Below, one piece after another: positions 37,853 to 51,061 of a stretch of 64,000 nt of DNA. The position numbers and the translations under genes were made by a program. The stretch spans positions 12,145 through 76,144 of the forward strand of contig CAZPOP010000008.1 in NCBI GenBank assembly GCA_964588305.1, written 5' to 3'. The notes beneath the pieces are model-generated. The model had not been told where the DNA came from. It worked only from the letters and a program-made list of their open reading frames with translations, and ran no database searches. Every line of letters starts with the position of its first letter. Position 1 is the first letter of the stretch. The DNA is from an uncultured Ignavibacteria bacterium (lineage in GTDB: Bacteria; Zixibacteria; MSB-5A5; SM1-73).

Positions 37853-37891
37853 AAAACGCCAGTCTCCTTTACTGAAGAAGACTGGCGTTTT
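37853..37891. terminator. Bidirectional terminator between convergent mreB and the PorV-family gene
   Basis: AAAACGCCAGTCT...AGACTGGCGTTTT, 13-bp inverted repeat with A/T tails. Confidence 0.8.
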
Positions 37892-37918: not shown

Positions 37919-38926
37919 TTAGAAGTTCATCACCAGGCTGAACCTATGGGCGTTTTCCAGCCTGCCCAGGTCTGCCCAGGCATAGTGGATTCCGACGGTT
38001 CCGAACTCGGGGATGTCGAAATCATAGCCGCCGCCTACTGCGATGCCTTCTTCATCGGTTCTTATCTTATATCCCGCTCTGACGGCCAGGCGATCCTGCC
38101 AGCTGTACTCAAGCCCCACGCTCCCCTGTTGGCCCCGATCCCGGGTGTTGTATCCGTCCAATACAGCCAGAAGCTTGCTGTCCTCGTTAAATTCAAAATC
38201 GTAAGCTGCCCCTAACCGGAAGGTTAAAGGCAGGGAATGGGATTGGGTGTTCAACCTTATCTCTACCGGAGAGGTCGTGGGATCATCATCCTGATCATAG
38301 GTGGTTTCCAGCTCGGTTCCCCCGTATTTCGAATCCGTGCCAAAGTTTCGGGTGGACATGGCTATTCTGAGCGTTCTGAAACCGGTGTAATAGATGGTGC
38401 CAACATCCACAGCGAAGGCTCCCGAGGAAAGCTCGGAGATCTTCTCTCTTATGTATTTGGCAGTCACCCCGAAGGAAAAGCGGTTGGTCAGCTGGTGAGC
38501 GTTGCTCACTCCCACCACCCAGCTGTTGGCGCCAAACATCTCTCCCGTTCCGTCAGGTTCTTCCAGAGTTGTCCTTTCCATGTCACCCATGGTCAAGACG
38601 GCCACATGAACTCCCGCGTTTCCAAAGCCCGGTAACGGTCTGGCGTATGCAAAGTAATTGTATTTGATGTCCGCAATCCAGTCGGTATAGCTGAAAGCGA
38701 CGCTGTTCTCATCCATGTCAGCTATGCCTGCGGGATTGTAATAGAGCGCCATGGCTCCCCGGGTTATGGCGGCATTGGCGCCGCCCAAAGCCACTACTCG
38801 AGCGTCCACGTCCAACTTGAGAAACTGCGCGCCAGACGTCCCCAGATTGTCGAACTCCGCAGCCGGGACCGAACCCGCAAAAGTCAGGATCGCTATCATC
38901 ACCGAAAGCACAAGGAATCTTTTCAT
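37919..38926 (-). CDS. PorV/PorQ (UPF0164)-family outer-membrane beta-barrel
   Basis: Signal peptide; GTSGAQFL...ARVVALG..A..YYNPAG N-terminal motif; amphipathic strands; C-terminal HRFSLVMNF. Confidence 0.88.
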   Translation of the reverse strand: MKRFLVLSVMIAILTFAGSVPAAEFDNLGTSGAQFLKLDVDARVVALGGANAAITRGAMALYYNPAGIADMDENSVAFSYTDWIADIKYNYFAYARPLPGFGNAGVHVAVLTMGDMERTTLEEPDGTGEMFGANSWVVGVSNAHQLTNRFSFGVTAKYIREKISELSSGAFAVDVGTIYYTGFRTLRIAMSTRNFGTDSKYGGTELETTYDQDDDPTTSPVEIRLNTQSHSLPLTFRLGAAYDFEFNEDSKLLAVLDGYNTRDRGQQGSVGLEYSWQDRLAVRAGYKIRTDEEGIAVGGGYDFDIPEFGTVGIHYAWADLGRLENAHRFSLVMNF

Positions 38927-38956
38927 TTCGATTTACCTCCTCTACTTTTTTGTCGA

Positions 38957-41900
38957 TTATCGCACCACCGCGAACTTCCCGATCTTCTCTCCGTATTCCG
39001 AGTCTACATGGTAGATATAGACCCCGGCTGCGATCTTCTGGCTGTTCTTGGTCAAAAGATCCCAATTCTCGTTTCCGTCAAATGTCGCGCTCTCATGCTC
39101 CAGAGTCTGGAGATGATCGCCGGAGAGAGTGTATATCCTTATGGTGCACTTGTCGGGAAGATGGGTGAAAGCGATGCGGGAATAATCGCGACTGGGCTCC
39201 CACATGTTTCGCACGATATAGGGATTGGGAACCACCTTGATATCATCAAGATCCACCAGATCGCTCGAAATCGTCGTCGCCTTGGTCGAGAAGGTGAAGA
39301 TGTCCGCTGAAGTATTGATTTTGTTGGTGAGAGCCCTCACTATTGTTCCAGCATCCGGTCGAGCCAACTCGCCCGAGTAGTCGTAGAACCAGAATCGCCC
39401 GTAATGCGTGCCGTCAGCGACATAGTCACCCGAGGTTATATCGGGAGTGGTCCAGGCCACGTCGTCATACGGGATGTCCAGGATGTAAAGACCGTCTCCC
39501 CAGGAGAAAGTGTTGCTGCCGTCGTCATCAATGATCATGAAGGTTATCCTCACGTCGTCTGACGGGTCATCCACTGTGCCAATTCCTATGTCCCAGAACT
39601 CAATCGGCACCTGGAATGGAGCGACGAATGAGTAGTCTCCTGCACCATACCAATCCCAACAGTACCCGGTGGCGTCCTGCACGAACCTGATCTCGTAATC
39701 GTGGGTGTTAGCACCGTGCCAGGAATATCTGCTGAAGGACGCGTCGCCGCCTGGGTCCATGTACCAATCCCTGGTTGAGTTCAGCGAGTAATTCAGGTTA
39801 TCAGGTGGATCCACGGGTCCAGCAGCGTTTTGCACTTCGGCCACTGACTTAACGCCCAAAGCAGGTCCTGCCACCCTGACCAGAAGCCCATCCACCACCG
39901 GGTAGTCGTCGTCTCCAGTTTGGTTGATCTGATCTTTCAACACAGTATCCTCCTCGGTCACGTCGATCAGATGCCAGATGGTGTAACCGTACGTGCTGTC
40001 GTCGAATATCACCTTATAATCGTGTCCGGTGACCTCCAGCGGGTTGACCACCTCTGCGGTTACGGACCCGTCACCCCCTCCTCCAGTGTGTTGTAGCTCG
40101 AGAACAGTGGCCGAGGAGAGGCCCGTAGCATTGGAACGCGGTGTCACCGTTATCCCTCTGATACCGTTTGCCAGGCTGCGAGGAGAGGCGAAGGGCTGAA
40201 AATCATAGGCGATGACATCGTAGTAATAGGTGACTCCGTTAATCAATCCAGTATCCAGATAAGCGTGTCCCAACCCTGGATTATCCCCTTCGGGTTCTTC
40301 TAAATGTCCGGTGATCTTGAATATCATGTCTTGCGTCGGAACATAGGAGGCATCATCTCCGGTGAAATTGATCACCATCCCGCCAACCAAGAGATTACAG
40401 CCGTCGAAATACTTGTCGTGGGTGCCATTGGCCACACCAGCCGAGTCACTCCGACTCCAGAAGTCCGCATCGAAGAGCTCAAATTCATAAGGCGGCTCTC
40501 CGGTAGAGTACCAGTGATCCTCTTCCTCAGTAACCGGAATGTTCACTCCTAGGGTCAGGTCGGTGACGGCGAATGAACTGTCAGATTTGATCTGCACCAG
40601 GTACTGATGACCTGCGAAGAGTGCCGTTCCGCCATAAGCCAGGATATACCCTTCGGTATTCAGCTGATCGTAGCTGACGGTGCCTTCAAACGGGAGGCCG
40701 GAGAGCTGCTCGACGTCCACATGGCGTGGCGTGACGCTGGATTTGTCCCAGGAGGCCAGAAGATCGAAGGTACCGGGGAGTCCCGATCTGCTTCGGTAGA
40801 GCTTATATCCCTCGAAATCCATCTCCAAATAATTGGGATCGTACAGTGGGTGCTCGGTGGAATCGGTGAACTTGAAATACGGATCCTGGGAAAGCTCCGC
40901 CACCTCGTCCCAGGTGATGTAGACCTTTTTGTCATCCGGAACGATCGTGACATTGGGATGATCCGGCGGCCGGGGTAGAACGAAGCCGATGTCGTAAATG
41001 GATTGAGCTATGTCTGCAATCACGGGAAGTTGTTCCGCATCCGGAGCCATCATAACCGCTACAACCACTCTTACCGTGTCCCCGGCGATCGTGTCCTCGC
41101 TGGCTATTTTCAGACTGTCGCCAGCTGGGTCCCAGGCCCAGACTGTGTCGATTAGAGTATCGCCAACGGGGGCCAGGAAGAATGGTCCGGTGCTTTGGAA
41201 GAATCTCTGGTCTTGCGGGGTGTCTCCGGTTCCCAGATCAAAGGGACCGTAAGCCTGGTCTCCCACGTCCGGATACTCGTGTCCTGCCATGATGATGTAC
41301 TTCTCGGGTTCGGTGTCGGGGTCGCCGGACTGCAGATTCGAGGTTTTAAACGAGGTCAGGCCCAGAGGTGATCCCTTCCTGACGTCCTTTACCCACACGT
41401 CATTCCACTCCACGGAATCGTCGTCGATCATATCATTCCCGTTAAAGTCCACATCATAGTTAGCCACCGGGCTTTCCAGAAACTTGTAGGCCAAATAACC
41501 CGGGATTCTGGCGAATCCCTGCTCGGCGAAGTCGGAGTCGTAAGCATAGCCCAGATTCCGGCTGGCATCGAATCCCACCTTATCGTCGTTGGCGGTTGGT
41601 CCCACGTCAGCGTCGCACATGATAGAAACATAGCAGTTTCTTATGGGTGCCCTATCCTCTCTTATGTTCACTATCTGGTAGACGAAGAAGTGGATGGTCT
41701 TATTGTTCTCATAGTTCCAGGAATGCGTGCGCTGGATGACCTTAACTCCCAAGCCATATTTGGCGATGTCGACTCCGTCTCCTGCATTGGAGTTCACACC
41801 GGTGTCCCATCTTTGAATGTCTTGATCATCGAATTCGCAATAGCTGTCCTCAATACCAAGTATGACCGAGTTTCCCTCATCGTCGCGCAGGGGCCAGAAA

Positions 41901-42424
41901 TCAGGATCGTCGTAATCCTCGGGATGGTCGCTGATGAATATATCGGTCAGTCCGGAGAACTCCTCCGCCCCTCCGCTGGGGTTGTACCCGATCACCACAC
42001 GGGGATCAGTTATGGTTCCGTAAAGAATGGTGTCCCTTTTGGTGCCCGCGTTTTTGAAATTGAAGGTCTGCATGGTGCGGTCGTTGACGGTTCCGCCTAC
42101 CCATATGCCGGCGCCGTAAATGTAGAACTCGTTAGAGCCCTTGGGCCATTCACCTCCGGCAGATCCCAGATCGATGAACTGCCCGAAGGGGGCATAGTTG
42201 GTTAAGGGTACTCTGAAATCGTTGACGTCCAGGCCATGCCTTATGTACTTGGTGGAGTGCTCGGTTTGCGCCGCCTTAGCTAAGGGTGGGGGAACTCCTT
42301 GACTGGCTCTTCGGGCCTCACTCTGTAAAGGTATCAGAATGAAGAGAAGGAGGCACAGGAGGGCAAACCCAGCCAACAGTGAACCTTTCTTTTTGAACTT
42401 CTCCATGTCAAATCTCCTTTTCAA
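38957..42424 (-). CDS. Large secreted protein with T9SS type-A-like C-terminal sorting domain
   Basis: Signal peptide; EWPKGS..YIYGAGIWVG, DADVG, FEGYKLYRS and NGVTYYY motifs; C-terminus IKVVPNPY...FTHLP..CTIRIYT..WDL...AGVYIY..K.GKFAVVR. Start may be the downstream ATG (MEKFKK). Confidence 0.85.
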   Translation of the reverse strand: MKRRFDMEKFKKKGSLLAGFALLCLLLFILIPLQSEARRASQGVPPPLAKAAQTEHSTKYIRHGLDVNDFRVPLTNYAPFGQFIDLGSAGGEWPKGSNEFYIYGAGIWVGGTVNDRTMQTFNFKNAGTKRDTILYGTITDPRVVIGYNPSGGAEEFSGLTDIFISDHPEDYDDPDFWPLRDDEGNSVILGIEDSYCEFDDQDIQRWDTGVNSNAGDGVDIAKYGLGVKVIQRTHSWNYENNKTIHFFVYQIVNIREDRAPIRNCYVSIMCDADVGPTANDDKVGFDASRNLGYAYDSDFAEQGFARIPGYLAYKFLESPVANYDVDFNGNDMIDDDSVEWNDVWVKDVRKGSPLGLTSFKTSNLQSGDPDTEPEKYIIMAGHEYPDVGDQAYGPFDLGTGDTPQDQRFFQSTGPFFLAPVGDTLIDTVWAWDPAGDSLKIASEDTIAGDTVRVVVAVMMAPDAEQLPVIADIAQSIYDIGFVLPRPPDHPNVTIVPDDKKVYITWDEVAELSQDPYFKFTDSTEHPLYDPNYLEMDFEGYKLYRSRSGLPGTFDLLASWDKSSVTPRHVDVEQLSGLPFEGTVSYDQLNTEGYILAYGGTALFAGHQYLVQIKSDSSFAVTDLTLGVNIPVTEEEDHWYSTGEPPYEFELFDADFWSRSDSAGVANGTHDKYFDGCNLLVGGMVINFTGDDASYVPTQDMIFKITGHLEEPEGDNPGLGHAYLDTGLINGVTYYYDVIAYDFQPFASPRSLANGIRGITVTPRSNATGLSSATVLELQHTGGGGDGSVTAEVVNPLEVTGHDYKVIFDDSTYGYTIWHLIDVTEEDTVLKDQINQTGDDDYPVVDGLLVRVAGPALGVKSVAEVQNAAGPVDPPDNLNYSLNSTRDWYMDPGGDASFSRYSWHGANTHDYEIRFVQDATGYCWDWYGAGDYSFVAPFQVPIEFWDIGIGTVDDPSDDVRITFMIIDDDGSNTFSWGDGLYILDIPYDDVAWTTPDITSGDYVADGTHYGRFWFYDYSGELARPDAGTIVRALTNKINTSADIFTFSTKATTISSDLVDLDDIKVVPNPYIVRNMWEPSRDYSRIAFTHLPDKCTIRIYTLSGDHLQTLEHESATFDGNENWDLLTKNSQKIAAGVYIYHVDSEYGEKIGKFAVVR

Positions 42425-42469
42425 GATTCATGCTTTGAATGAATTCTTGCCTCATAACTGAACCGAGCC

Positions 42470-45391
42470 TTAGAAAGCGAAGTAGACGCCCACGCTGATC
42501 TGTCGGGGAGGCCCATAGTTCATGGGATCCTTGGCGTAGAGCTTATAGGCATTGGCATACGCTGTGGCCTGCTCCTCCGCGCTGATCTCTCCGTCTCCGT
42601 CCGTATCCTTCTCCTTTATCCAATCCCAGTATTCGTGATCTTCGTCTTCTCCCGGGGCCTGTATGGTCGCTGGATCCAGGCTAAATCCATCATCGTCGGG
42701 CCGGCCCGTGGCAGGATAAACGTCGAAGACGTTAATCTTGTCAAACAGGTTGAACACCTGCACGAAGACGTTAATCTCCTTTCCCCAGATGTCAAAACTC
42801 TTGTCTACCGTCAGGTCCGTATTGTAGGTCCAAGGCTTACGGTACTCGTTGGGGGACCCTATTCGGTTGCCCCGATAGTCTCTCTTGGTGTAGGGGAGAC
42901 CACTGTTGGCCTCGGAGATGACGTTTACACCAAAGCCCCTCAAGGCCAACCACTTGAAGTCTCCTGGGAATCTGAAGTCCGCCTGTAACACGATGCTGTG
43001 CCTTCGGTCAAAGTCCAAGGCGTTGACGCTCTGCGGGAAAACCCGGGGCAAGCCGGTCACCGGGTCTGTGGCGTCACGAGAATGATACTCATATTGGTCA
43101 CGCGAATCGGAGTTGGTGCCCTGAGCGAATTGAAGAACGTAACTTAGGTCGAATGCCAAATACCTCCTGGGCCGCTTGGATAACGTCGCCTCCATGCCCT
43201 TGACGTTCGCGTAATCTAAGTTCTTATAGACATCATAAGGCTGGGGCACGATGAAGATCCTCTCGAACTGGGTCATGTTGTAGACGTCCTTATAGTACGC
43301 GGTAACGTTGAACTTCATATCGCGGGTTATCGCGCGAGTCAGGCCCAGCTCATACTGAATGTTCCTGCTGGCTTTCAACTCGGGATTCCCCACCTGCTGA
43401 TTGGCTCTTTGCAGGTTCGGAGCCAGGGACAGGTACAAGTCTCTGAAACGAGGCTCCTGAACAAAATGGCCGTAGTTGAAGAAGATGGTCATCTTGTCGG
43501 AAACAGGATGAGAGATTCCCAATCTGGGACTGAAGTCGATGTTAACGTCCGACTCGGCGGTTCGTCCGCTGTCAGGTTCTAAGTCGGGTCTGGTTGGAAC
43601 GTCCCTCTCGTTTTCCCAACCCTTTGCTTCCTTGCTCAGATAATCGACTCTTCCTCCGACATTGACTATGAGCCCCTGAAATTCGAGTTTGTCCTGGACA
43701 TAGAAGGCACCGCCTTTGGGCTTGAACTCATAGATGTCTATGAAAGGTTGAGCATCCCAGGGAAGGCTGTTGTAATGCCTGGTGATCTTGTAAGAGTTGA
43801 ATTCAGCTCCGGATTTGATCTGGTTGTTGAAGTCCACCTGGCTGACGATATCGAACTTAGCCGTGATGACGTTACTTTCTCTGGTCTCATAGGATCGGGT
43901 ATCGTAGTGCGACCAAAACAGATTGTCCACGGCCAAAGGATAGTTCTGTTCCTGCCTCCGCTCCCGGTATCTCCGCCACTCACTCGTATCAGGCGTAGGT
44001 TCACAGAATTCGTAGTCCGTCCACCAATCGCCGTCCCAGATATCGCCCTCGTGTTCAGCAATGAAGGCTTCCGCCGCTTCCGGGTCGTCCGGGTACAGGT
44101 CATTAGCGGTGCGCTCCAAGAAGTTTCTGTCCAGGCGTCTGCCTATGGTGTAGTCGTTGCTGAAGTATCCGAGCTTGGCCTCGTAAAACGTGCTTTTGGA
44201 GACTGAGTGGGTTAACCACAGATAGACCTGTTTGGCCTTTTCCAGGGTGGCGTTGTAGCTTTCCAGGTTGTACAGCCAGGTGTGGTTATACCTTTCATAT
44301 TGTCTTCGGTTAACGAAGCCACCGCTGCGCAAGGTGATGGCCGGGGTGAGTTTGAAAGTTAGCTTGCCCTGAGTTCGGTAGGTCTGCTGCTGGTGGTGAG
44401 GAAGTTTGTGGACTCGGGGGCCCCAATCGTCAGTCAGATACAGATTGCCGCTGAAATAATAGCCGAGCTTGCCGCTGGTGCCGGGCACAGGACCATTCAA
44501 GCTTAAGAAATGCTCGTTGGTCCCGAGATCATAATCGTCCCCCAGAATGGCATCGGTGGAATACTGGTATTTTCCGGAGAGCTTTGGCCCACCTTCCTGG
44601 GTGACGTAATTGATGATGCCGGACATGGCGTTGCCGTATTCCGCATTGAACCCGCTGGTGATCAGCTGAACCTCGGAGATGGTAAAATGATTCAGATTGG
44701 TGGCTTGACCCGCCAGGATGGGATCGGTGATGGACAACCCGTCGACCATGTATACCACCTCCTGCGGACGCCCACCTCTCAAGGTTATCCCCGGATTGGC
44801 TGTGTCGGTCACCCGGTCCCCTTCATTACCCAGCACGGTTCCCTGGGTTCCCTGATTGATGGGGCCACCGATGGGGTCGAACACCACTCCGGGAGTGCGG
44901 TAGACGATCCCGTCCGTATTTATCACCGGACGGTGGACTAAGTCTGCAGAGGTGATTATGTGTGCCGTGGAAGTCAAATCCGGTTCGAAGATAGGTCTCT
45001 CCGCAGTTACGGTGATGCCTCCCACCTCCAGCGGCTGGGGTGTCAGCTCGAAATCGATGGTGGTGGTCAAATCCAGCGACACCGAAACCTGGTCAATGTC
45101 CACCGAAGTGTAACCGATAAGAGAGACCTTCAGCGTGTAGACTCCTGGAACCACATTCAGGATAAAATACTCGCCCTTTTCATTTGCAGCCGCTCCCATG
45201 GTGGTTCCCACGATTGTCACTGCCACCCCGGGGAGCCGCTCGCCGGTATCTTTGTCTTTTATTATTCCTGCTATCTTCCCCGTGGTTCCAGCCCAAACTT
45301 CGTCTCTGTCCTGTACCAAGAGAAGAGTCGACAGAAGGAAGAAAGACAAAACCAACACCGGTATCGATATGCGAATCACTTTCTTGTTCAC
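42470..45391 (-). CDS. TonB-dependent receptor with N-terminal carboxypeptidase-regulatory-like domain
   Basis: GTTGKIAG..D.TGE.LPG, plug motifs LRGGR..E..YMVDG and GFNAEYGNAMSGIIN, FSPRLG, and C-terminal PRQISVGVYFAF. Confidence 0.93.
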   Translation of the reverse strand: MNKKVIRISIPVLVLSFFLLSTLLLVQDRDEVWAGTTGKIAGIIKDKDTGERLPGVAVTIVGTTMGAAANEKGEYFILNVVPGVYTLKVSLIGYTSVDIDQVSVSLDLTTTIDFELTPQPLEVGGITVTAERPIFEPDLTSTAHIITSADLVHRPVINTDGIVYRTPGVVFDPIGGPINQGTQGTVLGNEGDRVTDTANPGITLRGGRPQEVVYMVDGLSITDPILAGQATNLNHFTISEVQLITSGFNAEYGNAMSGIINYVTQEGGPKLSGKYQYSTDAILGDDYDLGTNEHFLSLNGPVPGTSGKLGYYFSGNLYLTDDWGPRVHKLPHHQQQTYRTQGKLTFKLTPAITLRSGGFVNRRQYERYNHTWLYNLESYNATLEKAKQVYLWLTHSVSKSTFYEAKLGYFSNDYTIGRRLDRNFLERTANDLYPDDPEAAEAFIAEHEGDIWDGDWWTDYEFCEPTPDTSEWRRYRERRQEQNYPLAVDNLFWSHYDTRSYETRESNVITAKFDIVSQVDFNNQIKSGAEFNSYKITRHYNSLPWDAQPFIDIYEFKPKGGAFYVQDKLEFQGLIVNVGGRVDYLSKEAKGWENERDVPTRPDLEPDSGRTAESDVNIDFSPRLGISHPVSDKMTIFFNYGHFVQEPRFRDLYLSLAPNLQRANQQVGNPELKASRNIQYELGLTRAITRDMKFNVTAYYKDVYNMTQFERIFIVPQPYDVYKNLDYANVKGMEATLSKRPRRYLAFDLSYVLQFAQGTNSDSRDQYEYHSRDATDPVTGLPRVFPQSVNALDFDRRHSIVLQADFRFPGDFKWLALRGFGVNVISEANSGLPYTKRDYRGNRIGSPNEYRKPWTYNTDLTVDKSFDIWGKEINVFVQVFNLFDKINVFDVYPATGRPDDDGFSLDPATIQAPGEDEDHEYWDWIKEKDTDGDGEISAEEQATAYANAYKLYAKDPMNYGPPRQISVGVYFAF

Positions 45392-45828
45392 CGCTATTTC
45401 CTCCTTAGAAATAGAAGTTTCACTTTCCTTAGTTCACAAAAAGAACTTATCAAAATGATTTGTAATACATCACCTCCTTTGGAACGATAAGCATGTTTGT
45501 CAGCAACTTGGTATGGTTGAGAACAGACCTCTTAATTTGTGCTCATCCTGAGTCTTGATGCAAGTGGGTATCAGAATCTGCCCGAATATGAGGTGCCCAT
45601 ATCGGAATCGCTGGGAAGATCATCCAGTCAAAGCAGAATTTCCCGTTTTTTCGTTTGTCGATCACATCGAGAACCTCCGTCTTTATCGTAACACAGAGAT
45701 TCCCTTAATAATGTATCGTCAAAGTTTGCAGTTCCGACAGCGGATTTTTTAGCTTAGAATGAAAACAAGCAGGGTGAAAATCCCATTTCCTGATGACATC
45801 GACTGCACTCTTTTTGCTGTCAGGCTGA

Positions 45829-45857
45829 AATTTAAACGCCCCGATTTTCAGTGTCAA
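45829..45857 (-). promoter_or_regulatory. Sigma-70-like promoter of the TonB receptor operon
   Basis: Minus strand TTGACA-N17-TAAATT, about 430 nt upstream of the start codon. Confidence 0.6.
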
Positions 45858-49117: not shown

Positions 49118-51061
49118 CTATTGGCTCTTTTCTTCCTGGCCTTCTTCCTCAGCGATTTCACCCCGGGCGATCATCCTCTCATAATCCAGGGGGTGCCTTT
49201 CCAGGTAAGCCTCTTCCGTCATTTTTCCGGTCAGCACGGTGAAGTTTATGGGATAGCTTTCCGGATGAATAAACATGAAGAAGAAATGCCACACCAGGAT
49301 AGCCAGGGTAGCCAGCCAAGCTTCGTAGTAATGGACCGCCTTTGCCACGTCCAAGAGCCACTTGGGCATGAATCCCAAGAAGAAGGTCTCGAACCACAGG
49401 GGAATCCCGGTTACGATCATCACGAATCCACCCCACATCAACGCCCAATACTCTGCTTTTTCGGTGTAGTCGTATCGGCCAAACTGAGGAGGCTTAGACG
49501 ACAAGCCGAAGCTGTAAAGAAGATTCTGTGTCACGCTGCTAACGTCCGACAGGTCCGGGAATTTGGCCTTTATCTGCTGCCAACCACGCTTGCTGAGAAC
49601 GGAACGGAAGATGGAGAAAAAGAAAAGGCCGATCAAAATCACCCCTGCTACCCGATGAGCCACCCCCCGGGCCGCAAAGGCGGTGGGAGAATGGGTCAAC
49701 CAGGATGACCACCAGTGGTCCGGAAATCTAAAAGCGAAGCCGGTTATGATCAATGTGACGAAGGATATGAAAAGAAGAAAGTGCCACAGGACCTCAGTCG
49801 ACGTCCACCTTATCACCCGCCCGGTTTTCGCTTCCCGGTACCGTTCTATGGCAAATCTTATCATGACCACGCCGTTGTGAGCCAGCATTCCGCCGATTGT
49901 CACGATTATAAGACTAAGGTAGAGAATCCTTACCCAGTAGACTCCTACGTCCTTCTTGCTGGTAGGAATGATGTGTATTGAGCCCTTGGCATAGTTGGCC
50001 CCGGCACCTTCGTGGCATTTCCCACATGTTTCAGGCAGATTAGCCTTGTTGATGCTGGAGTGGGGATCGTCCTCTCCTCTGATGTTGTGACTGGTGTGGC
50101 AGCTTACACAACTGGCGGTGTTAAGATCACCGGCTCTGCTCCCAACTCCATGATAGGTATCCAGATACGTTGTCACCCTTTCGGAAACCAATCCATACTT
50201 TTCAATGATCCTTTCTGAGGAATGACACCGATTGCAGGTTACCCTGGAGATGTTCGCAGGAAAAGTAGGCGAGGTTTTGTCACTGGACGATTTGATGCCA
50301 TGATCATTATGACAGTCGGTGCAGACCGGCGCTTCAGTTACTCCTCTCTTAACTCCTCTTCCATGAGTGTCTTCGCTATATTCTTCCTCCTCTCCGGGGT
50401 GGCACTGACCGCAGGTCGAGGGAATATTGGTTCGATAGACATATGAAGTGGGATCAGAAGCAGGCCGTAAGTCGTGACTTCTATGGCAGTCGCTGCAAAC
50501 AGCTACCCCTATGTCTCCTTCCTCGAGTGCCTGGCCGTGGACACTCTGAGCATATGCCTTATAGGGAGCGGGCACCGGTATCTGATACTTGCTCACCAAT
50601 CTCACATCCGCATGGCACTTGGCGCACATCTCAGGCTGGTTGGCACGGTAGGTATCGGCCTCGGGATCGTCTACCGAGCGGATGTTGTGATAATCGTGGC
50701 AGTCCTGGCAGGTGGGAGCATCTGTCACTCCCTCCAGGTATTTCTGTCCATGAAATCCCCTCTCATACAGGTCTAATGCGTCTGCGTGGCACATTCCACA
50801 GTTCACCATCTCCAGCGGAGCCTCATGAAACTCGGCCTCGGCGTCTGCATGACAGGCCACGCAGGACAAATCATGGTGAATGGACTGTTGAAAAACTGCT
50901 ACGTCTACGTACAGTGAAATCTCTTTGCCCAGAGAGTCTTCTTTGGTTAGAGTCTCGTCACCATGACACATCATGCAATCCTCGTTTGACTGGGCAAAAA
51001 CGAATTGAGCAAAGGCCAATAGAATTGCAGCCGTTCCGAGAATTTTCAGATGTTTCTGCAA
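49118..51061 (-). CDS. Multiheme cytochrome c (11 CXXCH) fused to an FdnI-type cytochrome b (CbcL-like)
   Basis: Signal peptide; CMMCH, CVACH, CGMCH, CQDCH, CAKCH, CSDCH, CGQCH, CTDCH, CNRCH, CVSCH and CGKCH; C-terminal TM domain with HRVAG, EKAEYWA..WG and HYYEAWLA..VWHF. Confidence 0.92.
   Translation of the reverse strand: MQKHLKILGTAAILLAFAQFVFAQSNEDCMMCHGDETLTKEDSLGKEISLYVDVAVFQQSIHHDLSCVACHADAEAEFHEAPLEMVNCGMCHADALDLYERGFHGQKYLEGVTDAPTCQDCHDYHNIRSVDDPEADTYRANQPEMCAKCHADVRLVSKYQIPVPAPYKAYAQSVHGQALEEGDIGVAVCSDCHRSHDLRPASDPTSYVYRTNIPSTCGQCHPGEEEEYSEDTHGRGVKRGVTEAPVCTDCHNDHGIKSSSDKTSPTFPANISRVTCNRCHSSERIIEKYGLVSERVTTYLDTYHGVGSRAGDLNTASCVSCHTSHNIRGEDDPHSSINKANLPETCGKCHEGAGANYAKGSIHIIPTSKKDVGVYWVRILYLSLIIVTIGGMLAHNGVVMIRFAIERYREAKTGRVIRWTSTEVLWHFLLFISFVTLIITGFAFRFPDHWWSSWLTHSPTAFAARGVAHRVAGVILIGLFFFSIFRSVLSKRGWQQIKAKFPDLSDVSSVTQNLLYSFGLSSKPPQFGRYDYTEKAEYWALMWGGFVMIVTGIPLWFETFFLGFMPKWLLDVAKAVHYYEAWLATLAILVWHFFFMFIHPESYPINFTVLTGKMTEEAYLERHPLDYERMIARGEIAEEEGQEEKSQ

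What the first reader, a model, noticed from the sequence alone, without database searches (positions are those of the whole stretch)
37919..45391. TonB receptor + T9SS-CTD cargo + dedicated PorV-family barrel: candidate SusD-independent uptake system
Seen: a tight three-gene operon with its own promoter and terminator and no SusD-like lipoprotein. Established: Bacteroidota SusC transporters use a SusD lipoprotein lid, and PorV binds T9SS C-terminal domains at the cell surface. Inference: the 1155-aa CTD protein is displayed on its own PorV paralogue and serves as substrate-capture partner or lid for the receptor, giving a tripartite outer-membrane import complex. I recall this gene triad recurring in non-Bacteroidia FCB lineages but know of no functional characterisation.
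Basis: partly seen in the sequence, partly recalled or inferred. Interest (0 to 1): 0.8.

Follow-up and report, generated by a model that had tools for sequence, protein, structure and literature searches.

The report
TonB transporter with T9SS-anchored partner
A three-gene outer-membrane unit of an uncultured Zixibacteria bacterium pairs a TonB-powered import channel with a large secreted surface protein and that protein's own small anchoring barrel; the arrangement is widespread and I found no description of it, and it may do the job that SusD does in Bacteroides.

Summary
The three genes are real and sit tightly on the minus strand. They encode a TonB-dependent transporter (973 aa), an all-beta secreted protein (probably 1149 aa, not 1155) and a PorV/PorQ-family barrel (335 aa). 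A strong hairpin follows them. No SusD was found in the genome.

The genome is a Zixibacteria MAG with a type IX secretion system (T9SS). It holds three paralogous copies of the triad.

Among 59 related loci with both flanks readable, 46 keep the same order and strand, under many FCB candidate-phylum labels.

The big protein's tail is a diverged type-A T9SS sorting domain of a special subclass. It scores best against the PorZ and PorU tails. The triad barrels form their own clade within the PorV family.

The N-terminal domain is a beta super-sandwich like the N-domains of GH15, GH94 and GH116 enzymes. No known family covers the protein.

Best reading, about 50% confidence: the T9SS exports the protein, its own barrel holds it as PorQ holds PorZ, and it serves the transporter as a capture arm.

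The substrate is unknown; I saw no glycoside-hydrolase neighbours.

This scan has noted the same cassette before on other DNA (64 notes). I found no paper describing it.

The parts
45829..45857 (-). sigma-70-like promoter match (TTGACA-17-TAAATT); a candidate only
   Evidence: The region holds 2 such matches against 7.2 expected in shuffles, so this is not evidence of function. It lies in the 536-nt gap upstream of the transporter gene.
45469..45479 (-). conserved SD-like box AAAGGAGGTGA in the leader, about 85 nt before the transporter start; in the window a 6-codon mini-ORF follows it
   Evidence: Columns are invariant in the alignment of the window and 10 Zixibacteria relatives; sequence. 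Function unknown. No Rfam match.
42470..45391 (-). TonB-dependent transporter, 973 aa: signal peptide, CarboxypepD_reg N-terminal domain, TonB-box-like ITVTAERP (res 126-133), plug, barrel, EF-hand-like loop (res 929-940), C-terminal Phe
   Evidence: Plug 28.5 bits; profile hits PhuR 4e-24, Cir 1e-20, RagA 1e-13.
38957..42406 (-). secreted all-beta protein, probably 1149 aa (longest ORF runs to 42424): signal peptide, beta super-sandwich (res ~57-490/553), FN3-like and further beta domains, special type-A T9SS CTD (res ~1058-1155)
   Evidence: No Pfam or NCBIfam family covers the body.
37919..38926 (-). PorV/PorQ-family outer-membrane barrel, 335 aa, member of a triad-specific clade
   Evidence: NF033709 210 bits against cut-off 90; PorQ 118 and PorV 87, both under their cut-offs; profile hits F. 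johnsoniae PorV 6h3i_F at 1.5e-28; clade with SH-aLRT 98.
37853..37891 (-). terminator-like hairpin (17-bp stem, 5-nt loop) followed by a short U-run
   Evidence: -25.5 kcal/mol, z -6.5, 0 of 200 shuffles fold as well.

Best explanation
The three genes encode one outer-membrane module. All three products carry Sec signal peptides. The transporter and the small barrel are inserted into the outer membrane. The big all-beta protein is exported by the genome's type IX secretion system through its C-terminal sorting domain. Ordinary cargo is handed to the housekeeping PorV and PorU for cleavage. I propose instead that this protein's specialised, PorZ-like tail stays on and is held by the co-encoded PorV/PorQ-family barrel, as PorQ holds PorZ. 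That would plant the protein next to the transporter. Its distal super-sandwich domain would capture, or possibly cut, an external substrate. The TonB-dependent transporter would then import that substrate. Shown here: the gene order and its conservation, the family of each part, the presence of a T9SS and of TonB, the homology and distinct subclass of the tail, and the distinct clade of the barrel. Inferred: retention of the tail on the barrel, physical contact with the transporter, and import as the function. The substrate is unknown.
For: Unit: gaps are 63 and 30 nt with good ribosome-binding sites. A strong hairpin follows gene 3.

Conservation: the genome holds three paralogous triads in the same order. 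Of 59 related loci with both flanks readable, 46 keep TBDR-mid-barrel on one strand. In those 46 the median gaps are 29.5 and 15.5 nt. The record titles name Zixibacteria, Latescibacteria, WOR-3, Cloacimonadota, Calditrichota, Edwardsbacteria, Stahlbacteria and others.

Co-inheritance: the tree distances of the three proteins correlate, r 0.83-0.93, with 0 of 999 permutations reaching the observed value.

T9SS: SprA_N scores 95 bits, PorU 714 bits, and there are 67 Por_Secre_tail matches in the genome. SprA_N is also present in 5 of 5 triad genomes under other phylum labels.

Tail: an HMM of 40 of the genome's own generic CTDs hits 40 of 40 triad tails, the window's at 30.7 bits and E 5.5e-10. 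hhalign gives 98.2% probability, with a 9-residue insert after the PNPY motif. A triad-tail HMM scores 168, 143, 112 and 108 bits on four proteins of the genome, and the next best scores 49. The best curated hits to the tail are the C-termini of PorZ and PorU, the two T9SS proteins known to keep their CTD.

Barrel: 40 triad barrels form one side of a branch (SH-aLRT 98) against 14 other PorV-family barrels.

Precedent: the PorZ CTD is retained and bound by PorQ. The review proposes that cognate PorV-like barrels protect CTDs from cleavage (PMC10202324, section 16, passages read).

Transporter: a TonB-box-like motif and a terminal aromatic residue are conserved. TonB_C is found in the genome. 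A TonB gene lies in the operon neighbourhood in 2 WOR-3 loci.

SusD_RagB was not found in this genome or in 5 other triad genomes.
Against: Adjacency is therefore the only link between the big protein and the transporter.

The window's tail does not reach the curated Por_Secre_tail cut-off (16.8 against 23 bits).

A search for longer proteins found no fusion of the barrel with either partner (weak evidence).

A fourth protein of the genome has the special tail but no barrel gene beside it. It is cut by the contig end, and its downstream neighbour lies on the other strand.

The correlation of trees is what vertical co-inheritance alone would give. The 'other' barrels in the tree all come from one phylum.

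Neighbours give no consistent substrate. The window's flanks are housekeeping genes. Among 186 flank ORFs of 46 triad loci no glycoside-hydrolase family appeared.

The super-sandwich fold says nothing firm about function. The chain-of-domains shape does not resemble a SusD lid.
Confidence: 0.5

Rival explanations
1. This is the same module, but the big protein is a surface enzyme (a depolymerase) rather than a binding arm. It would cut a polymer, and the transporter would take up the pieces.
For: The N-terminal domain has many invariant acidic residues and tryptophans across 45 homologues: E155, W177, D200, D271, D273, D281, D405. Its fold matches domains of glycoside hydrolases and phosphorylases: Z 17-20 over about 250-270 residues. 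The same N-domain occurs on non-triad secreted proteins, some with dockerin.
Against: The matched domains are, from my recall, the non-catalytic N-domains of those enzymes. The model shows no (alpha/alpha)6 catalytic domain. No Pfam or NCBIfam enzyme family hits the protein. The fold of residues ~560-1050 was not searched separately.
Confidence: 0.2
2. The barrel is only a private export shuttle. It helps the big protein through the T9SS, after which the tail is cleaved and the protein is released or linked to LPS. The transporter is merely co-regulated, and there is no stable three-part complex.
For: PorV is described as a shuttle from the SprA translocon to the attachment complex (PMC10202324, passages read). 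The genome has PorU. Other large CTD proteins of the genome also have a barrel gene right behind them without any transporter: C18 and C3:149398.
Against: The tail resembles the retained PorZ and PorU tails more than the generic signal. It forms a sharply separate subclass, which ordinary processing would not require. The transporter gene is kept next to the pair in 46 of 59 loci.
Confidence: 0.17
3. The small barrel is itself a FadL-like channel for a hydrophobic substrate, or the transporter acts in export as Oar of Myxococcus does. On either view the module is not a SusCD-like importer.
For: The barrel gives a weak Toluene_X/FadL hit (E 1.4e-6, under the cut-off), and its profile touches TodX. 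The transporter's best Pfam hit is CarboxypepD_reg PF13620. From my recall, Oar-type receptors also carry that domain.
Against: The barrel scores far higher on PorV_fam (210 bits) and on solved PorV (1.5e-28). The Oar-type barrel family PF25183 gave no match on the window's transporter. The big protein has a T9SS tail, so it needs no other exporter.
Confidence: 0.06

Closest known systems
SusC/SusD (RagA/RagB) pairs of Bacteroidota polysaccharide utilisation loci
   Same: A large TonB-dependent transporter with a carboxypeptidase-regulatory-like N-terminal domain is followed at once by the gene of a surface partner. Weak SusC/RagA similarity covers the N-terminal domain and plug.
   Different: The transporter scores 42 bits against the 368-bit cut-off of TIGR04056. 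The partner is all-beta, with no SusD fold and no lipobox. It is a T9SS cargo, not a lipoprotein. A third gene, the barrel, belongs to the unit. No SusD_RagB was found in the genome.
PorZ-PorQ and PorU-PorV of the T9SS attachment complex (Porphyromonas gingivalis)
   Same: A T9SS protein keeps its CTD and is held at the surface by a PorV/PorQ-family barrel (PMC10202324, passages read). The tail's best curated hits are the PorZ and PorU C-termini. The barrel scores higher on PorQ than on PorV. PorZ (5m11) is the top Foldseek hit of the whole model, though with a low TM-score.
   Different: It does not meet the PorZ, PorQ, PorV or PorU equivalog cut-offs. The genome has separate PorU, PorV-type and near-PorQ genes elsewhere. 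Here the pair is coupled to a transporter gene and occurs in several copies.
Type B CTD cargo with PorP/SprF-like barrels (e.g. SprB-SprF)
   Same: A cargo gene is followed by the gene of its own outer-membrane barrel, which anchors it (PMC9143113; title and start of abstract seen in the listing).
   Different: The barrel family differs (PorV/PorQ rather than PorP/SprF), as does the tail type (type A-like). No transporter is part of those pairs.
BtuB-BtuG and SusE/F-type surface glycan-binding proteins of Bacteroides (recalled, no call)
   Same: These are TonB-dependent transporters served by non-SusD surface proteins. The SusE/F-type proteins are chains of beta-sandwich domains.
   Different: Those partners are lipoproteins. 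This one has an ordinary signal peptide and a T9SS tail, plus a barrel of its own.

Membership tests
TonB-dependent transporters | N-terminal plug domain | tested here: met
   Plug PF07715 scores 28.5 bits in the genome search, over the cut-off. hmmscan of the protein gave 23.5 against 23.9, just under. The family profile aligns to the plugs of Cir and FepA-type receptors.
TonB-dependent transporters | 22-strand barrel ending in an aromatic residue | tested here: inconclusive
   The barrel part of the profile hits PhuR at 4e-24. The terminal residue is F, W or Y in 31 of 32 family members. No Pfam barrel family hit.
TonB-dependent transporters | TonB box before the plug, and TonB in the genome | tested here: met
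   ITVTAERP at residues 126-133, with the pattern kept across 32 members. The motif itself is recognised from recall. TonB_C gives 4 matches in the genome.
SusC/RagA subfamily (TIGR04056) | score over the curated cut-off, and a SusD partner gene | tested here: not met
   42.1 bits against 368.25. The next gene is not SusD-like. No PF07980 match in the genome.
Oar-type TonB-dependent receptors (PF25183) | Oar-like barrel domain | tested here: not met
   No match on the window's gene. There is only a 22.6-bit sub-threshold match on the C3 paralogue.
T9SS type A sorting domain (TIGR04183 / PF18962) | score over the curated cut-off | tested here: not met
   16.8 against 23 bits. The window's protein is absent from the genome's 67 matches, while the C19 paralogue passes at 25 bits. 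8 of 45 family members pass PF18962 at E<=0.01.
T9SS type A sorting domain (TIGR04183 / PF18962) | homology of the last ~95 residues to bona fide CTDs of the same genome | tested here: met
   The generic-CTD HMM scores 30.7 bits, E 5.5e-10, and hits 40 of 40 triad tails. hhalign gives 98.2% probability, E 5.4e-14.
T9SS type A sorting domain (TIGR04183 / PF18962) | a T9SS in the genome (SprA translocon, PorU) | tested here: met
   GldK, GldL, GldM and GldN were not searched.
PorV/PorQ family (NF033709) | score over the curated cut-off | tested here: met
   210.1 against 90 bits. The family profile hits solved PorV 6h3i_F at 1.5e-28.
PorV proper (NF033710) or PorQ proper (NF033711) | equivalog cut-off | tested here: not met
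   PorV 87.3 against 250; PorQ 117.8 against 220. The genome's PorV-type gene lies beside PorU on C24, and a near-PorQ (209.6 against 220) lies on C2.
PorZ-PorQ-type anchoring pair | CTD retained after export and bound by the barrel | not testable with these tools
This needs proteomics or a pull-down.
SusD-like lid proteins | lipoprotein with an alpha-helical TPR-rich fold | tested here: not met
   The model is almost all beta. The signal peptide has no lipobox; the Cys lies inside the hydrophobic core (sequence, read by eye).

The most novel reading that the evidence does not exclude
Much of the FCB superphylum outside Bacteroidia feeds through a SusD-free architecture. In it, a TonB-dependent transporter is served by a type-IX-secreted capture protein that is tethered non-covalently by a cognate PorQ-like barrel through an uncleaved, specialised sorting domain. 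This would make the T9SS a builder of nutrient-uptake machines. The conserved EF-hand loop on the transporter's last outer loop may be a calcium-dependent docking or gating site.
Probability: 0.35. Interest if true: 0.85.

Novelty: new variant of a known kind. Interest (0 to 1): 0.65.

Why it matters
TonB-dependent uptake with a surface partner is understood mainly from SusCD of Bacteroidota. T9SS anchoring is understood mainly from Porphyromonas and Flavobacterium.

This module would join the two systems. It would be a transporter whose outside partner is delivered and held by T9SS parts.

It is common. The big protein's family has 488 clusters at E<=1e-30 among 1.84 billion representatives. 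It is found in 127 of 151 sampled genomes of the phylum and in 27 of 41 genomes of a second phylum. Yet it has no Pfam or NCBIfam model, and I found no paper on it.

The carriers are abundant sediment degraders. Knowing what the module takes up would therefore inform carbon-turnover models.

It would also show that cognate PorV-family barrels are a general way of keeping T9SS cargo on the cell.

Tried and rejected
- As a result, the fold of residues ~560-1050 and the transporter barrel were not examined.

**RNA**
- Rfam found no match in the operon and its leader, nor in 7 related loci.
- The leader blocks conserved in relatives give no covariation support: RNAalifold term +0.52.

**Expression**
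- No RNA holder was listed for the stretch.
- One run labelled metatranscriptomic, which the tool itself rates as probably DNA, has short contigs on the transporter and middle genes. This says nothing about expression.

**Fusions and look-alikes**
- A search for longer proteins holding the barrel gave one unrelated 625-aa OmpA-type protein.
- The ESM Atlas returned only 'hypothetical protein' clusters.

**Substrate from neighbours**
- The window and its two paralogues give no clue.
- In relatives, Peptidase_C11 lies next to the triad in 4 loci, and alanine racemase + MR_MLE + Amidase_3 in 3 loci. No glycoside-hydrolase family was seen among 186 flank ORFs. This is too thin to name a substrate.

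**Other checks**
- The C38 'TBDR-like' hit is a CarboxypepD_reg repeat protein, not a transporter.
- My regex count of the tail insert failed. The insert rests on the hhalign alignment.

**Literature**
- Five searches and passages of a 2026 transporter review with no mention of T9SS or PorV turned up no description of the triad.
- Subscription journals are not covered.


Full report
**What is there**

One search lists three co-directional ORFs on the minus strand: 42470..45391 (973 aa), 38957..42424 (1155 aa) and 37919..38926 (335 aa).

The middle gene most likely starts at ATG 42406. That codon has AGGAG 7 nt upstream, and the database copy of the protein is 1149 aa. The gaps are then 63 and 30 nt. 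The third gene has AGGAGG 9 nt upstream.

A 17-bp hairpin sits 28 nt after the last stop. It folds at -25.5 kcal/mol with z -6.5, and 0 of 200 shuffles fold as well.

The 536-nt gap upstream holds one sigma-70-like match. Such matches are fewer than chance in this region, so a promoter is not shown.

The flanking genes are housekeeping: MreB, LptF/G, a sulfatase-family protein and signal peptidase I.

**The parts**

*Gene 1* has CarboxypepD_reg and Plug domains.
- A profile of 32 family members hits solved TonB-dependent transporters: PhuR 4e-24, Cir 1e-20, RagA 1e-13.
- A TonB-box-like ITVTAERP motif is conserved, and 31 of 32 members end in an aromatic residue.
- It is not SusC proper (42 against 368 bits). 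It is not Oar-type either.

*Gene 3* is a PorV/PorQ-family barrel.
- It scores 210 against 90 bits on the family model, but falls under the PorV and PorQ equivalog cut-offs.
- Its family profile hits solved PorV at 1.5e-28.

*Gene 2* has no family in Pfam or NCBIfam apart from weak hits on its tail.
- An AlphaFold model built from 45 homologues has pLDDT 80 and pTM 0.62, and is almost all beta.
- Residues ~57-490/553 match the beta super-sandwich N-domains of GH15, GH116, GH94 and GH65 enzymes, with Z 17-20 over about 250-270 residues.
- There is no (alpha/alpha)6 catalytic domain.
- The rest is a chain of beta domains ending in the tail.

**Is the tail a T9SS signal?**

The curated model says no: 16.8 against 23 bits. 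Other evidence says it is a diverged member.
- An HMM built from 40 ordinary CTDs of this genome hits the window's tail at E 5.5e-10. It hits 40 of 40 triad tails.
- hhalign gives 98.2% probability.
- The triad tails carry a 9-residue insert after the PNPY motif.

Conversely, a triad-tail HMM scores 168, 143, 112 and 108 bits on four proteins of the genome. The next best protein scores 49. The tail is therefore a sharply separate subclass.

Its best curated hits are the C-termini of PorZ and PorU.

The genome has SprA_N, PorU and 67 Por_Secre_tail matches, as well as TonB.

**Conservation**

The genome is a Zixibacteria MAG, going by the names given. It holds the triad three times, on C8, C19 and C3. 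All three big proteins share the N-domain, FN3-like domain, C-terminal part and tail.

A scan of one genome per species gave 195 related stretches, of which the best 80 were kept. I searched these with HMMs built from the three paralogues.
- 59 loci have both flanks readable.
- 46 of them hold TBDR, big protein and barrel on one strand.
- 1 holds only the barrel; its middle gene is frameshifted.
- 12 hold neither partner. These match only the N-domain and are a different architecture.
- Median gaps in the 46 are 29.5 and 15.5 nt.

At E<=1e-30 the family is found in 127 of 151 sampled genomes of the phylum. Full-length matches occur only in the window's own order. It is also found in 27 of 41 genomes of the phylum of a WOR-3-labelled genome.

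SprA_N is in 150 of 151 genomes of the phylum sample, so its presence does not discriminate there. It is in 5 of 5 triad genomes under other labels. SusD_RagB is in 0 of those 5 and is not found in the window's genome.

The 40 triad barrels form one side of a branch (SH-aLRT 98) against 14 other PorV-family barrels. Those 14 all come from Zixibacteria.

Tree distances of the three proteins correlate (r 0.83-0.93, 0 of 999 permutations reaching the observed value). Co-inheritance alone would give this result.

**How it most likely works**

The best-supported reading follows the PorZ-PorQ precedent. PorZ keeps its CTD and is bound by PorQ, and a review proposes that cognate PorV-like barrels protect CTDs from cleavage (PMC10202324, passages read).

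On this reading the T9SS exports the big protein. Its special tail is held by the co-encoded barrel. The protein then serves the adjacent TonB-dependent transporter.

Its shape suggests a capture arm or a surface enzyme rather than a SusD-like lid.

This genome also places barrels directly behind other large CTD proteins that have no transporter: C18 and C3:149398. A private barrel for a cargo is therefore a general habit here, and the triad is the case in which a transporter joins the pair.

**What is not shown**

No interface was modelled. The substrate is unknown.

Earlier notes of this scan place the cassette in sugar-degradation loci of other lineages. In my sample of 186 flank ORFs from 46 triad loci I saw no glycoside-hydrolase family. 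What I did see:
- extra CTD proteins upstream in 19 loci;
- TonB in 2 loci;
- Peptidase_C11 in 4 loci;
- alanine racemase + MR_MLE + Amidase_3 in 3 loci.

From the 192 flank ORFs selected I dropped 6 before these calls, because they were members of second, tandem triads.

**Novelty**

Five literature searches and a 2026 review of glycoside transporters gave no description of the triad.

The scan itself holds 64 earlier notes on the same cassette, in at least 59 genomes.

I rate it a new variant of known kinds: a TonB transporter with a surface partner, and a T9SS cargo with a cognate barrel. Interest is 0.65.

Noticed in passing
window 42605-42640 (residues 929-940 of the transporter): A canonical EF-hand loop (DTDGDGEISAEE, flanked by helix-like stretches) sits in the last outer loop of the transporter. 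A full DxDxDGxIxxxE-like loop is kept in 29 of 32 family members across phylum labels. Pfam EF-hand_1 scores only E 0.0035, under the cut-off. It may be a calcium-dependent docking or gating site.
   Followed up: partly
window 45469-45479; loci L015-L026 upstream of the transporter gene: All 11 aligned leaders share AAAGGAGGTGA about 85 nt before the start. In the window a 6-codon mini-ORF follows it. Relatives share about 250 nt of conserved leader blocks. There is no Rfam match and no covariation support.
   Followed up: partly
G000 C18:705-11460 and C3:146356-151944 (loci L093, L094): Two further 'large CTD protein followed by PorV-family barrel' sets have no transporter: a 3246-aa protein with a barrel, and an 848-aa FlgD_ig protein with two barrels. 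The latter set lies about 4 kb downstream of the triad in several Zixibacteria relatives.
   Followed up: partly
G000 C24:19726-30026 (locus L092): This is the core T9SS attachment locus. It holds PorU (714 bits), a PorV-type barrel fused behind about 590 extra N-terminal residues (856 aa), and an M6-like inactivated metalloprotease with a CTD (439 bits, under its 600-bit cut-off).
   Followed up: no
G000 C43:12590-14590 (locus L101): A fourth protein carries the triad-type tail (108 bits). It is cut by the contig end, and the gene downstream lies on the other strand, so it has no barrel beside it.
   Followed up: partly
loci L033, L040, L056, L080; L043, L045, L057: In relatives the triad lies next to clostripain-family peptidases (4 loci), or is followed by alanine racemase, an MR_MLE epimerase-type enzyme and an N-acetylmuramoyl-L-alanine amidase (3 loci). 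This hints at protein or peptidoglycan-fragment uptake in some subclades.
   Followed up: no
G000 C19:18782-20482 (locus L095): The C19 paralogous triad is preceded on the same strand by a sensor histidine kinase with a receiver-like N-terminus. It is a possible dedicated regulator.
   Followed up: no
window 49118-51061, minus strand: A 647-aa protein joins multihaem cytochrome c domains (Cytochrome_C7, c3) to a cytochrome b561-type membrane domain.
   Followed up: no
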